From: Octopus vulgaris
Taxonomy: Eukaryota
Length of the DNA: 64,000 nt
Assembly (NCBI GenBank): GCA_951406725.2
Contig: OX597832.1
Location: 12,214,001-12,278,000, forward strand
Reading direction: 5' to 3'
Below the pieces are notes generated by a model. The model ran no database searches and was not told the DNA's origin. It saw only the letters and a program-made list of their open reading frames with translations. Both the position numbers and the translations under genes were made by a program. This document shows positions 2,072 to 50,929 of this stretch, piece after piece (the first letter of the stretch is position 1; each line of letters begins with the position of its first letter).

Positions 2072-2144
2072 CATATGTGTGTGTATGTATATATGTGTAT
2101 ATATACATAATACATACATATATATATATATATGTATCTATCTA

Positions 2145-2219
<75 letters not shown>

Positions 2220-2516
2220 TATATGTATGTATGTATGCATCAATATGTATAATTCTCTTTCTATCTATGTATCTATCTAACTATGTATATGTATATATGT
2301 AAAATATAGGGTAGTGAGTTTTTTTAGAAATTTCACTACCAGTAGCCTATCATGTATTAAAAGTCAATAGACAATATATTCTCAATATAAAATAGCGTAC
2401 ATTTAAACATAGGAGAAAACAGCCTTCTACAGGCAGTTTTTACACGCTAGAAGGAGTAGTCAAAACGACCAATACCATATTTAATAGCAATCTTCAAAAG
2501 GAACGTAAAATAAAAA

Positions 2517-2587
2517 CTGTTACCTTGGTTTGAAAATGTTTTTAGGAAATAAAATAATTTCCTCGGCGAATTTCTCATCAGTAACCG
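2517..2587 (-). ncRNA. Degenerate hammerhead ribozyme (left arm)
   Basis: Minus strand reads ggtta CTGATGA gaaattcgcc gaggaaa..tttccta ..CAAA ccaagg ta; GAAA is mutated to CAAA and stem I is eroded. Confidence 0.6.
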
Positions 2588-2627
2588 AACCATAATACTC
2601 ACATGCAATTAGGAGACAAATATGGCG

Positions 2628-2699
2628 CGGTCACTGATGAGAAATTCGCCTAGCAAATTATTTTCTTTGCTAAAAAATGTTGAAACCTAGGTCTGACCG
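2628..2699 (+). ncRNA. Type I hammerhead ribozyme, intact core
   Basis: Stem I cggtca/tgaccg; CTGATGA at 2634-2640; stem II includes tagcaaa/tttgcta; GAAA at 2682-2685; palindromic stem III cctagg; GUC cleavage triplet at 2691-2693. Confidence 0.8.
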
Positions 2700-3216
2700 G
2701 AAAAAATAACGAACTAAAAGATTTTATTTTTCATTCCTTTTGAAGATTTCTCTCAAATGTGGTTTTGGCCATTTTAACTATTTCTTCTAGCGTGTAAAAA
2801 CTGCCTGTGAAAGGCAGTTTTCTCTTGTGTTTAAATGTATACTATATACGTGTGTGTGTGTGTGTGTGTATACATATATGTATATATATATATGTGTATG
2901 CATATATAAATATATACATACATATACTCCTACATACACACATATATGCATATATACATACATAACAGATATATGTCTATGTAGAATCATACATGAATGT
3001 CGCTGCATATCTACACGTGTAATCGTATAGAATCGTATAGATATGTATATATACGTATAGATATAAATCTTTAGTTATTCGTTTAACACGAGATACAAAA
3101 CTGAATGTCTTTAGCATATATTATGCTAAAATTATTTTACATTTCACTCAAATATCGCATTTCTATATCTATCCCTTGGGAATATATTAATATATGCAGC
3201 AACTATATTAATATGA

Positions 3217-12450: not shown

Positions 12451-12530
12451 CGGATTTTCAGGTCCCCTGTAGGGGCAATTGTGGCGGTTAATTGAACGAT
12501 TTTATTTGAATGTGGCCTCATCACTTCACA
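12444..12530 (-). pseudogene. Short maT/DD37D-type Tc1/mariner transposase fragment
   Basis: Minus strand reads [25 protein letters not shown], like the FSDEAHFHLNGxVNRHNCRYWxxENPH motif. Confidence 0.65.
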
Positions 12531-12534
12531 CAGG

Positions 12535-12954
12535 TTGAAAAAATGTAGCAGGTTGAAAAAATGTAATTGTAGGGTCTCATCAGAATGTCCTATTAGCGGA
12601 AATTGTCGCCAGGAAAATGTAGTTTATAAATGTAGTGTTGAGGCTCAAGGAGGCCAGAGAAAAATATACATTGGAAGCACAGTACCCTTTAAACAGAGGT
12701 ATCGATCCCACCTGAGCTCTTCCAACAATCCTAAATATAGGACTTCTACAACATTGGCATTAGATGTTAATGACCTTAAGGAAAGGAATGTTGAATTTAA
12801 AATATCATGGGCTATCCTTGCGCATCACTCCCCTTATAGAATTGGGTCCACTAGATGCGGTTTATGCATAAGGGAGGCATATACTATATTTAAAAATTAC
12901 AACAACGCAGTGTTAAATAAGTTCACTGATGCAATACCGGCGTGTACGCATTAG
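12535..12954 (+). pseudogene. Penelope-like GIY-YIG endonuclease domain, N-terminally truncated
   Basis: CNCRxxxECPISGNC..VVYKC..IYIGST..FKQRYRSH..CGLCIRE..LNK..CTH motifs typical of PLE endonucleases with a Cys-rich linker; no true ATG and no RT domain. Confidence 0.88.
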
Positions 12955-13388
12955 ATCCACTCGACGTTCCATAGGAAATTTAGAAATAGCAATAAAAGTT
13001 AGAGCTAAGCAATAACAATTGAGTTAAGTTTAGTAAGTATAGTGAGTGTTAAACGAGATAAAAATAGAATTATGTAATTATAAAAAAATAGCTGTTAGTC
13101 GAGGACTCGAACCTGAATATGTGGCTTTGTATGTATGGGAGAATTTATAAAATTGAAATGAAATAAAATAAAATAAAATAAAATAAAATAAATTAAATTA
13201 ACTGCTGAAGTGAAATGGTCCAGGTGGCGCTGTGTGCCTACAATTTACTATGGCGGCTGGATAGAGTTGCATGCGTATAAAGTTCCATTCAGGATCGACG
13301 AAAACATTTCCGGGAGTACGTAAATGCCGTGTTCTGAGAATGGCCGGTATGTGATTGTGTATTTGTTCATGTATTATATGTGTTGTAT

Positions 13389-13495
13389 AGGATATCCTAA
13401 TGAGGGGAGTGCCAATTGTAAGTACTATTTTAAGTACTTATATGTCTAATATTAATTGGCACATCCCCGAAATGGTCCGTAGATGGATTTCTGTA
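13389..13495 (+). ncRNA. PLE-associated type I hammerhead with long stem II; core mutated (CUAAUGA)
   Basis: CTAATGA at 13397-13403; stem II gggga/tcccc, gtgccaatt/aattggcac and taagtact/agtactta; GAAA at 13469-13472; short stem III tggtccg; GUA at 13479-13481; stem I atc/gat. Confidence 0.72.
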
Positions 13496-13904
13496 TATCT
13501 TATATTTTTGTAAGCTTGTATATATATTATATTCTATGTACTATTCGCCGGAATTTTATTCGTCTTTTGATATGCCATATTTTTATTTTATTATCATTAT
13601 ATTTATTTCTCTTAATCTAACAGTTTTAAGCGTGTTATATGCAAAATTTATATTTATATTTATATTTTTATTTGTATATTATACTTACATATTACTCAAT
13701 TAAATTTTTTTTAAATGTCGGACTGTATATAAGATTTGTATGTGTTTGGTCTATCTTTGAATTTTGTAATGTTCCTGTGGTTGTTGCTCGCATTGCCTCC
13801 CCTTGGATAAAAAAGTGTATACAGCTCATTGGAGCACTTCTATTTCCAGTCCGTTGTATATCTTGAGCGTTGTTGTAACTCAAGATATAACTTGATATTT
13901 TGTA

Positions 13905-24899: not shown

Positions 24900-25424
24900 G
24901 AATAAATTCTATAAAACTTTGATGTAATTAAACAATTTATGCCATATTACTGATCGCGGGATATGATTTAATTAGTAATACAAGTCTCTGATTTAATGAG
25001 AAAAACACAAATTTTAGGCTAAACACAGAAATGAAGATTATGGTCAAGGTTTTATCAAAAAAGTTAGCACATGTGGTGGATGGACTCGTTGGGGAGGCAC
25101 AAACATGTGCCGTTCCCGGCAGATCCATACAAGATAATCTTCACCATCTACGCTGCAACTTATAAACCTAATATTGTTAGGTTTATCATTTCAAAACGCC
25201 TAAATAACCCGTTCGGTCGGTTTTGAATTTTTTAAAATCTTCATTTCATTACTGTTCTACGGAGTACTGTATATACGCGAAGAAATTTAAACAAAATTGC
25301 CTCCATATTTCCCCATACAAAATTAGCATGTATGTCCCGACAACGATTCGAAGATAATGTTTTGTATCAAACTACCAATGCGAAAACGAAATCATATTGA
25401 TGGTATATCTCATACAAAGATAGT

Positions 25425-25936
25425 ATAAATGGCACCCTTCAGTCGAAGTATCACCATACATATTCCTTTCGATAGGTGATATTCATCAGAAAATATATTA
25501 CATTGAAAGTGTACGAAACCGCTATATAAATATTTATAGAAAATTTCTTCTTGCCCGCGTAAAAGAAAATATCTGCTCGTATCCTCCACTATCTATACTG
25601 TGATATAAAATACAGATATACATATAGCATAACTTATTCAAACGTTTATTGCAATGAAAATGATGTACCTAATTTATAATCATCTGCCTACCATTAAACA
25701 TATTCGAAGCATTTTGTATATGATATATTCAGGTGTAGTCGAACTTCTGTTACATGTTTTGTATCACACTATAGATATTGGAGGATACTATCAGATATTC
25801 CGATAGCAAGAAGAAATTTAGTATCCATATTTATATTGCAGTTTCTTATGCTTTTAACGTAATATGTTTTCTGATGAATATCAACTATAGAAAAGAATAT
25901 ATATGGTTTTACTTCGACTGAAGGGTGCCACTTTAT
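25425..25936. mobile_element. Foldback/MITE-like element with about 190-bp terminal inverted repeats
   Basis: tggcacccttcagtcgaagta versus tacttcgactgaagggtgcca; complementarity continues inward (gtatcctccactatctata / tatagatattggaggatac). Confidence 0.85.
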
Positions 25937-27078
25937 TTGAATATTGCGCTAAAAATTTAGAAAATGCCTCCCTGTAAGAAAATATATGTCCTATATTATT
26001 TGTGATATCTCTCTCTCTCTCTCTCTGATGCATTCTCTCTTTCTCTTTCTCTCTATCTTTCTTATTATATATATATATATATATTCAGAAAGAGGGAGAC
26101 AGAGACAGAGGGAGTGAGAGAGTGGTGTCGTCACAGATAAGAACTAATATGTATATGTATATATATGCGCGTAAGTACAAATATAATTGTATATATACAT
26201 GCATATGGCGTTTTTAATATAATTCCTAGAAAGAAATCCAATCCGATAGAAATAATTCTACGGTGAAAAAAAAAACACTTAGTGGATTTCTGAATATACC
26301 ACCTTACACAAACAATCAGCCGCATATTCACACAGAATAAGTATGTGCTTACGCGCGTGTATGTGTGTATATCAATGTGTATATACATATGTTTACATAC
26401 AAAGCTAGAGAAATATCATAGACAAAAACAGAAAGTTACATAGACAAATAGATAGTAAGTAAGATAAATTTAAAGATAGATAGAAAGGTAGATAGATAGA
26501 TAAATAGATAGATAGATAGATATATAGATAGATGGATAGATCTGTGAAGATAAATACACACACACGTGCACATACACGCGCGCGCAGTAAGTATACTTAG
26601 TGTCTACAAATTTCTTGATGGAATGATTTAATATAAGGATCTAACAAACGCAAATCTAATAACAAACAGAAATTGATGCTAAGCACATTACACATACCCT
26701 TGGTTTTCATGTCAGTGTGCCTACATGTTTGAAAGATTCTTGGACTGAATAGAGAACTTTCCACTATCTATTGCGTCAGAAGAAAGAAAAGTAAATATAC
26801 AGTAAATAACAAAAAAAAAACCAAAACAAAACAAAGACATTATCAGCTGAGAATACAATTATGTAATCGAAGGAGTGCAACTTAGCAAAAGAATGCACAA
26901 GCAAATACACACATATTGAAAATGCTTCTATGTAGTTGCACACATTTGTGCGCATATATATATATATATATACATACATATATATATATATATATGACTA
27001 TAAACATATATACTCACAAAAATGTATATATGCCTCTATCTATCTATCTATCTCTCTCTCTATCTATCTATCTATCTA

Positions 27079-32868: not shown

Positions 32869-33774
32869 CTTGCTGTCGTTGTTTAGCCACAGATAAACCA
32901 TGCATTTGAACGTAGCGCTTGCCAAAGCTTCTCAGCAATTATAATTCCGTCATTCTCTAATATAACTCCATAATATTCTCATTTTTGATATTTATGTTAT
33001 ACTAGAAACTTCAGCTACCATTTCTAATTAGGGTCTTACACTTACTCCGTCGCCCGGAGCAGCTGATTCTTCGACTACTTTTAGCCAAATTCACTTGATT
33101 TTGGACAGGCCTAAAGTTTGAGAAAGAATTTCCACTATTCGTTTCATTATTCCTGGAGTCTCTGATCAATTATGGGTCACGGACGCGGCCTTGCATTTCT
33201 TTAATGATTTAAAGACAAACATCGAAGAGAACTTTCCGTTTGCCTCATCAGTACTGATTCAGCTAGAGTAGTGATTGATAGATAACAAATCTGCGACACA
33301 TTATGTAAGTATTCTAATCGATAGAAATCGTCTGAACATTATGACCAACTTTAAGTGTCTGGGGAAACACTGCTATACATAATAGATCGATATAATAGAA
33401 GTTGTGACAGAAATACTACCAGACATAATGCCTCACAATTAATTTAGTGAGTTAAAAGAAAATTGTTGGAGTTTTCGCAATTAGTGTTTTATTTCAATTA
33501 GTCCAATTCACGTAACGATATAAGGAACTGGTAATTTTGATGATCACACAGACTTTATCGTTGCAGACGTAAAGACAATAGTCGCACAAGTGGGTGAACT
33601 GTAATGAATTCATTACGGAAATCTAAATCAGTCATATTACTAACTAAACCATTAGTTCAGATCGTTAAACACAGCTCTGATTCGGAGTTATTAAGAGATA
33701 AACATACGGCAGTGCCACTAATATAAAATGACAACGATGTAACGATGTTTATACATCCCCCCACACACACAGCC

Positions 33775-46884: not shown

Positions 46885-50929
<4,045 letters not shown>

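What the first reader, a model, noticed from the sequence alone, without database searches (positions are those of the whole stretch)
2303..2846. Inverted pair of repeats carrying back-to-back hammerhead ribozymes, one apparently intact
Seen: a fold-back of about 450 bp whose right arm has a complete type I hammerhead (cggtca-CTGATGA-stem II-GAAA-cctagg-TC-tgaccg) and whose left arm has a diverged copy on the other strand. Established: Penelope-like elements carry hammerheads with short palindromic stem III in their pLTRs, such ribozymes can cleave as dimers, and inverted pLTR arrangements occur. Inference: this is a protein-less PLE relic. The arms look too diverged for a recent self-duplication, so two related subfamily ends may have joined. 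A + strand transcript could self-cleave or form a long dsRNA, an ADAR substrate in a lineage with heavy editing if the octopus assignment holds.
Basis: partly seen in the sequence, partly recalled or inferred. Interest (0 to 1): 0.72.

Follow-up and report, generated by a model that had tools for sequence, protein, structure and literature searches.

The report
Decayed Penelope-type hammerhead retrozyme insertion
The fold-back is two shortened, head-to-head copies of a common 471-base non-coding repeat that carries a hammerhead-ribozyme motif, likely pasted in one step by Penelope-type retrotransposon enzymes; the kind is known and this old copy is probably inert.

Summary
The fold-back and both hammerhead motifs are real. 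The right one is not pristine: all core letters are present, but stem II starts with G•U instead of G-C and has a private A×G mismatch. The left one is broken (G12 lost, 23-nt deletion over the cut site). Both arms are 5'-truncated copies of a dispersed, non-coding, 471-nt circularly permuted repeat and belong to the same subfamily, so "two subfamily ends joined" is not supported. Head-to-head pairs are the family norm (53 of 126 loci). Of 26 pairs with both ends defined, 24 use one short and one long 3' end, the Penelope "tail" mark. Four subfamilies keep the hammerhead fold through compensatory changes. No Penelope ORF is linked in register. This is a non-LTR retrozyme / non-autonomous Penelope derivative, a published kind, and the scan has reported it many times on other DNA of this genome. 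A read-through RNA is predicted to bury the ribozyme in a duplex; transcription and editing are not shown. One family-level lead: 6 of the 9 longest copies begin at the next upstream cut site, hinting at a cut, linear template.

The parts
2301..2622 (-). Left arm: 5'-truncated copy of the 471-nt unit (subfamily W), ending at the long 3' site (B)
2621..2845 (+). Right arm: 5'-truncated copy of the same unit (subfamily W), ending at the short 3' site (A)
2301..2391 (-). One-sided 'tail': the stretch between the two preferred 3' ends, present on the left arm only
   Evidence: PMC11167929 for the meaning of the tail
2621..2622 (.). Head-to-head junction of the two 5' ends, about 2 nt overlap, no host DNA between
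2628..2699 (+). Type I hammerhead motif with long stem II; core complete, G•U at 10.1-11.1 (2641/2681), A×G at 2643/2679, predicted cut after 2693
2685..2692 (+). Palindromic stem III (self-complementary 8-mer), the usual dimer-type feature
   Evidence: PMC4209133
2520..2587 (-). Broken hammerhead: G12 lost at 2532, 23-nt deletion over the cut site and stem I 3' strand
2797..2821 (+). Hairpin about 25-30 nt upstream of 3' end A (left-arm copy at 2416-2440); candidate recognition element for the reverse transcriptase (inferred)
2310..2340 (-). Hairpin just upstream of 3' end B; candidate recognition element (inferred)
   Evidence: 9-bp helix 2310-2340
2140..2300 (.). Left flank: (CA)n/(TA)n-type microsatellite; the right flank from 2846 is also microsatellite; no target-site duplication can be read

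Best explanation
This is one old insertion of a non-coding 471-nt hammerhead-carrying repeat, likely copied into a TA-rich microsatellite in a single event by the reverse transcriptase-endonuclease of a Penelope-like element. Shown: unit length, circular permutation, variable 5' truncation, two fixed 3' ends about 92 nt apart, head-to-head pairs with one short and one long end, microsatellite flanks, four subfamilies with compensatory stem changes, no coding frame. Inferred: both cut DNA ends primed reverse transcription inside the RNA, one at site A and one at site B; the two short cDNAs were joined by their truncated ends, giving the fold-back with a one-sided tail. The master RNA was probably a longer-than-unit transcript. 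Afterwards the arms decayed independently (7% and 10%); the left ribozyme is dead and the right one is predicted weak and masked by the antisense arm.
For: 1799 first-look candidates, 40 scored, best non-self 86-90%. Period 471; about 446-460 in the sibling. 154 of 201 segments end at site A or B. 53 of 126 distinct loci have a head-to-head junction; 24 AB, 2 AA, 0 BB among the 26 pairs with both ends defined, 12.9 AB expected if independent, P 5e-6. Both window arms are subfamily W, and the left arm finds no closer subfamily among 40 scored candidates. Stem I and II change on both sides across subfamilies while the core stays. Coding PLEs of this genome carry hammerheads of the same long-stem-II, palindromic-stem-III build. 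PMC8557442 describes the inverted 5'-truncated copy and one-sided tail; PMC11167929 ties the tail to two internal start sites; PMC4209133 reports opposite-strand hammerhead pairs 100-700 bp apart.
Against: The arms differ at 15.9% of 201 sites, the highest of the 24 inverted-arm comparisons (range 2.5-15.9%; between-locus mean 12.2 ± 2.5%), and share no derived letter (0.8 expected), so one common RNA molecule is not shown. No autonomous partner was found: the unit has no match to 50 PLE loci (best E 0.51). 27 of the 53 pairs have an end outside A/B and were left out of the AB count. Pairs with a two-sided change (4) do not exceed the shuffles (483 of 500 as high), and they stand for few events. 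PMC11167929 saw no strand difference in start site in vitro, which does not explain the AB rule. Copies were picked by similarity, so counts are biased samples.
Confidence: 0.85

Rival explanations
1. The arms are leftover pLTRs of a protein-coding Penelope element whose ORF was lost here by 5' truncation.
For: Inverted truncated pLTRs are standard (PMC8557442); about 16,800 first-look candidates for PLE endonuclease in G000.
Against: Long copies continue upstream into the unit's own tail, up to 1.6 units. In 144 family loci (some duplicates; flanks 1.5-3 kb) tblastn with two PLE ORFs hit 8 loci, all outside the elements' 3' ends, none upstream in register. Only two PLE proteins were used as probes.
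Confidence: 0.07
2. Two separate insertions or two templates from related subfamilies met head to head.
Against: Both arms carry W states (left 5 W, 1 U, 2 gaps; right 4 W, 0 U) and the same linked haplotype; the junction has no host DNA; ends are A and B as in 24 of 26 pairs; four other pairs are 14-16% apart. Two RNA molecules of the same subfamily cannot be excluded.
Confidence: 0.05
3. The locus is a functional host RNA: an active ribozyme or an ADAR-edited hairpin.
For: A transcript would fold back at -231 kcal/mol with perfect helices of 33, 24 and 18 bp; the right core is complete; an axolotl hammerhead with a U·U mismatch at the base of stem II still cuts weakly (PMC7229834).
Against: Both arms have drifted as far as or further than other copies (7% and 10% against a mean of 6.7%); the left ribozyme is destroyed; the right core is paired in the fold-back.
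Confidence: 0.03
4. A fold-back DNA transposon (MITE) or Helitron-type element that happens to hold a hammerhead-like string.
For: Palindromic overall shape; hairpins near the 3' ends.
Against: Inner ends vary from copy to copy, outer ends are unequal, 73 of 126 loci have no head-to-head junction, and copies are tandemly permuted; the hammerhead fold is kept by compensatory changes.
Confidence: 0.02

Closest known systems
Metazoan non-LTR retrozymes (PMC7229834, parts 2-3 of 6 read; bioRxiv 10.64898/2026.07.22.740005, parts 1-3 of 5 read)
   Same: Non-coding repeat of a few hundred bases, AT-rich, type I hammerhead with short palindromic stem III, monomers and partial tandems, proposed non-autonomous PLE derivatives; a mussel family of 350-390 bp is described.
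   Different: Here copies are mostly under 1.6 units, often inverted, with no long arrays seen; stem II is about 40 nt with an internal loop; subfamily W lacks G10.1-C11.1; circular RNA and cleavage are untested.
EN+ Penelope-like element insertions (PMC8557442, 12 passages; PMC11167929, parts 1-2 of 4)
   Same: 5' truncation, adjacent inverted 5'-truncated copy, one-sided tail, microsatellite targets, priming sites downstream of the hammerhead.
   Different: No ORF; the tail is about 92 nt rather than 30-40; the mobilising enzyme is not identified.
PLE hammerheads in Schistosoma and other animals (PMC4209133, parts 1-2 of 4)
   Same: Opposite-strand pairs 100-700 bp apart were already reported; palindromic stem III; dimer-type design with low activity.
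   Different: Those are minimal motifs with 7-8 bp helix II; this one has a 2-bp stem III insert and a long helix II.

Membership tests
Type I hammerhead ribozyme | Core C3-A9, G12-A15.1, U16.1, H17 in type I order with stems I-III | tested here: met
   Right arm; not met for the left arm
Type I hammerhead ribozyme | G10.1-C11.1 pair at the base of stem II | tested here: not met
   G•U in the right arm; subfamily W: G•U 18, A·A 9, A-U 4, G-C 1, other 2 of 34; sibling S: G-C in 20 of 24; majorities of S, T, U are G-C
Type I hammerhead ribozyme | Stems kept by compensatory change | tested here: met
   88.6% of cells paired against 18-41% for slid pairs; 4 two-sided pairs, not above shuffles; four subfamily majorities with different, paired stems. 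Few independent events.
Type I hammerhead ribozyme | Match to an Rfam hammerhead model | tested here: inconclusive
   No hit, but a canonical sibling also fails (14.1 bits)
Type I hammerhead ribozyme | Self-cleavage | not testable with these tools
   Needs a bench assay; indirect hint only
Non-LTR retrozyme | Non-coding unit of a few hundred bases with a type I hammerhead | tested here: met
   471-nt unit; no ORF of 120 aa or more over the element; none in register in 144 loci
Non-LTR retrozyme | Head-to-tail units, at least two hammerheads in tandem somewhere in the family | tested here: inconclusive
   Partial tandems are common; two sibling copies (L128, L133) hold two cores 449 and 454 nt apart, both upstream ones clipped or damaged; no long array found; this locus has none
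Non-LTR retrozyme | Linear and circular unit-length RNA in cells | not testable with these tools
   Only contigs of runs guessed to be RNA were available
PLE-mobilised element | Inverted 5'-truncated copy and one-sided tail from two fixed 3' ends | tested here: met
PLE-mobilised element | Microsatellite/AT-rich targets, no clear TSD | tested here: met
   Flanks printed
PLE-mobilised element | Sequence shared with the pLTR of an autonomous PLE | tested here: inconclusive
   No match in 50 PLE loci of one endonuclease group; most PLE families of the genome were not sampled
Autonomous Penelope-like element | RT plus GIY-YIG ORF | tested here: not met
MITE / fold-back DNA transposon | Fixed terminal inverted repeats with target duplication | tested here: not met

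The most novel reading that the evidence does not exclude
The family's copies record the ribozyme cutting in cells and show the template: reverse transcription stops at the second cut site upstream (6 of 9) but not at the first (1 of 25), which points to a linear, once-cut multimer rather than the RNA circle of the rolling-circle model. Subfamilies that lost the G10.1-C11.1 pair, one with A·A there, still spread.
Probability: 0.35. Interest if true: 0.5.

Novelty: new member of a known kind. Interest (0 to 1): 0.24.

Why it matters
The locus itself matters little: it is one decayed copy among hundreds. The family is a usable natural data set for two open points in Penelope biology. One is how inverted insertions with a one-sided tail are made (24 of 26 pairs use both priming sites, one per arm). 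The other is whether the hammerhead cuts in vivo and whether the template is a circle. Its four subfamilies also give a series of natural long-stem-II hammerheads, with and without G10.1-C11.1, that Rfam models miss.

Tried and rejected
Rfam scans: no hammerhead hit, judged uninformative. A pattern for the window's subfamily with C at 11.1 found 0 matches in G000. Energy cost of the active monomer fold does not separate subfamilies (+7.2 kcal/mol here; medians 8.1 and 7.4), and the 84-nt right arm folds no better than shuffles (z -0.24). Pooled 5' ends are not enriched at the cut site (2 of 138, 3.5 expected; 4 of 63, 1.7 expected); the signal appears only among the longest copies, a post hoc cut. 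Search for the autonomous partner failed. Expression: no RNA holder listed; contigs of three runs guessed to be RNA cover the repeat, mostly other copies, which shows nothing on transcription or editing; locus-specific editing stays unexamined. No A-to-G excess in the arms' DNA differences. Pfam did not name two long PLE ORFs; the window's endonuclease piece matched GIY-YIG just under the cut-off. Scan notes by sequence and near this place: none. Two singleton rows were dropped from the subfamily clusters, and loci at the same genomic place were counted once.

Full report
Observation. The fold-back is real: arms 2392-2522 and 2715-2845 are 84% complementary over 131 nt, and the gapped self-match has E 1e-91. 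The left arm is 2622-2301 on the minus strand and the right arm 2621-2845 on the plus strand, joined by their 5' ends with about 2 nt of overlap; 2301-2391 has no partner. The right hammerhead has every core letter at the stated places, with the predicted cut after 2693. Its stem II reads G•U, A-U, A×G, A-U, U-A, U-A. The left motif has lost G12 and 23 nt including C17 and the 3' strand of stem I. Rfam finds no hammerhead, but it also misses a canonical sibling copy.

The family. The right arm has 1799 first-look candidates in G000; the 40 scored include copies at 86-90% identity on many contigs. A 43-letter pattern has 13 exact matches and a sibling pattern 41; from these I estimate a few hundred copies per subfamily, which is an inference. 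Long copies run upstream into the unit's own 3' end, with period 471 and about 446-460 in the sibling; the longest are 737 and 767 nt. Flanks are mostly (TA)n, (CA)n or (TATC)n. No ORF of 120 aa covers the element. In 144 family loci, two PLE proteins hit 8 loci, always outside the elements' 3' ends. So the template was a short non-coding unit.

Hammerhead under selection in the masters. Clustering 122 segments from 126 distinct loci gives four subfamilies (n = 55, 21, 14, 30; two singletons dropped), each 7.7-9.0% from its own majority and 5.8-20.8% from one another. Stem I and the fourth pair of stem II differ between them on both sides while the core is unchanged. On a 26-row alignment of two subfamilies, 88.6% of cells pair against 18-41% for slid controls; four pairs change on both sides, which is not more than shuffles give and reflects few events. 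Three subfamilies keep G10.1-C11.1. The window's subfamily W does not: G•U in 18, A·A in 9, A-U in 4, G-C in 1 of 34 copies with complete boxes, and the G•U and A·A types are linked to other columns, so they were two masters. That losing this pair lowers activity is recalled knowledge; PMC4209133 calls the pair highly conserved, and PMC7229834 shows an axolotl motif with U·U there that still cuts weakly.

Insertion geometry. 154 of 201 segments end at one of two sites, A (about 160 nt after the cut site) or B (about 255 in W, 227 in the sibling). 53 of 126 loci have a head-to-head junction. In 26 both ends are at A or B: 24 AB, 2 AA, 0 BB, against 12.9 AB expected (P 5e-6); the other 27 have at least one end elsewhere and were left out. 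The window is an AB pair. PMC8557442 describes the inverted 5'-truncated copy and one-sided tail for PLEs; PMC11167929 shows in vitro that the tail lies between two internal start sites of reverse transcription, that AT-rich DNA is cut on both strands, and that hammerhead mutants still insert; PMC4209133 already notes opposite-strand hammerhead pairs 100-700 bp apart.

One event or two subfamilies. The arms differ at 32 of 201 sites (15.9%), the highest of 24 inverted-arm comparisons, with no shared derived letter (0.8 expected); four other pairs are 14-16% apart and the between-locus mean is 12.2 ± 2.5%. Both arms are nearest to W and carry the same linked states, and the left arm's best genome hits include the W loci already held. 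Independent decay after one insertion explains this; two RNA molecules of one subfamily cannot be excluded.

What the locus can do now. The motifs are on opposite strands, so no cis dimer is possible. A plus-strand transcript is predicted to fold back at -231 kcal/mol, 75% paired, with perfect helices of 33, 24 and 18 bp, and the right core is paired with the left arm. It would be a plausible editing substrate if transcribed, but transcription and editing were not shown.

Template hint. Of 9 segments that reach within 13 nt of the next upstream cut site, 6 begin between 11 nt after and 2 nt before it (three W, three sibling); 1.1-1.6 are expected (P 2e-4 to 1e-3), and three run through. At the first cut site only 1 of 25 unselected arms stops, 2.6 expected. 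A circle gives no reason to stop on the second pass only; a transcript cut at the upstream hammerhead and uncut at the one nearest the priming sites does. The test is post hoc, n is small, the W starts are 4-11 nt off, pooled 5' ends show no enrichment, and a transcription start at that place would look the same.

Partner. Coding PLEs with a C-terminal GIY-YIG domain are abundant in G000, and several PLE loci hold hammerheads with a long stem II and palindromic stem III. None of 50 such loci shares sequence with the unit, so the enzyme is not identified.

Comparison and novelty. It works like, and fits, the animal non-LTR retrozymes, which a 2026 preprint (10.64898/2026.07.22.740005) derives from PLE pLTRs; there 1 of 9 tested dimers cleaved. 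Circular RNA, cleavage and a full tandem array are unproven for this family. Searches for a description in cephalopods and for twin priming in Penelope found none on this family; the library is incomplete. Earlier scan notes report the same kind and the same short-end/long-end rule at other places of this genome.

Noticed in passing
window 25420-25940: A second head-to-head pair of hammerhead-like motifs (CTGATGA at 25489 minus and 25871 plus), arms alike over about 190 nt, from an unrelated repeat; the family model does not match it.
   Followed up: partly
window 12496-13900: 5'-truncated coding PLE: GIY-YIG fragment (Pfam E 5e-4, under the cut-off) followed by a long-stem-II hammerhead-like motif at 13397-13485 with a G5-to-A change.
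   Followed up: partly
window 33233-33251, minus strand: Short hammerhead core boxes with a small stem II candidate; not analysed.
   Followed up: no
window 48074-49225, minus strand: 383-aa open frame with a non-LTR reverse transcriptase (RVT_1, E 2e-19) between very long (TA)n runs.
   Followed up: no
L091:987-3404: An 806-aa PLE frame without stops, RT plus C-terminal GIY-YIG with long Asn-rich inserts, not named by Pfam.
   Followed up: partly
L021 (two arms 1091-1438 and 1440-1721), L018, L040: Some inverted pairs share many derived letters between arms (10, 15 and 5 against 1.4, 2.7 and 0.4 expected), from a shared template or later gene conversion.
   Followed up: no
L174:2634 and 3418: A sibling copy starting just before the hammerhead core is duplicated with its flank at 784-nt spacing, a local duplication rather than a unit tandem.
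   Followed up: partly
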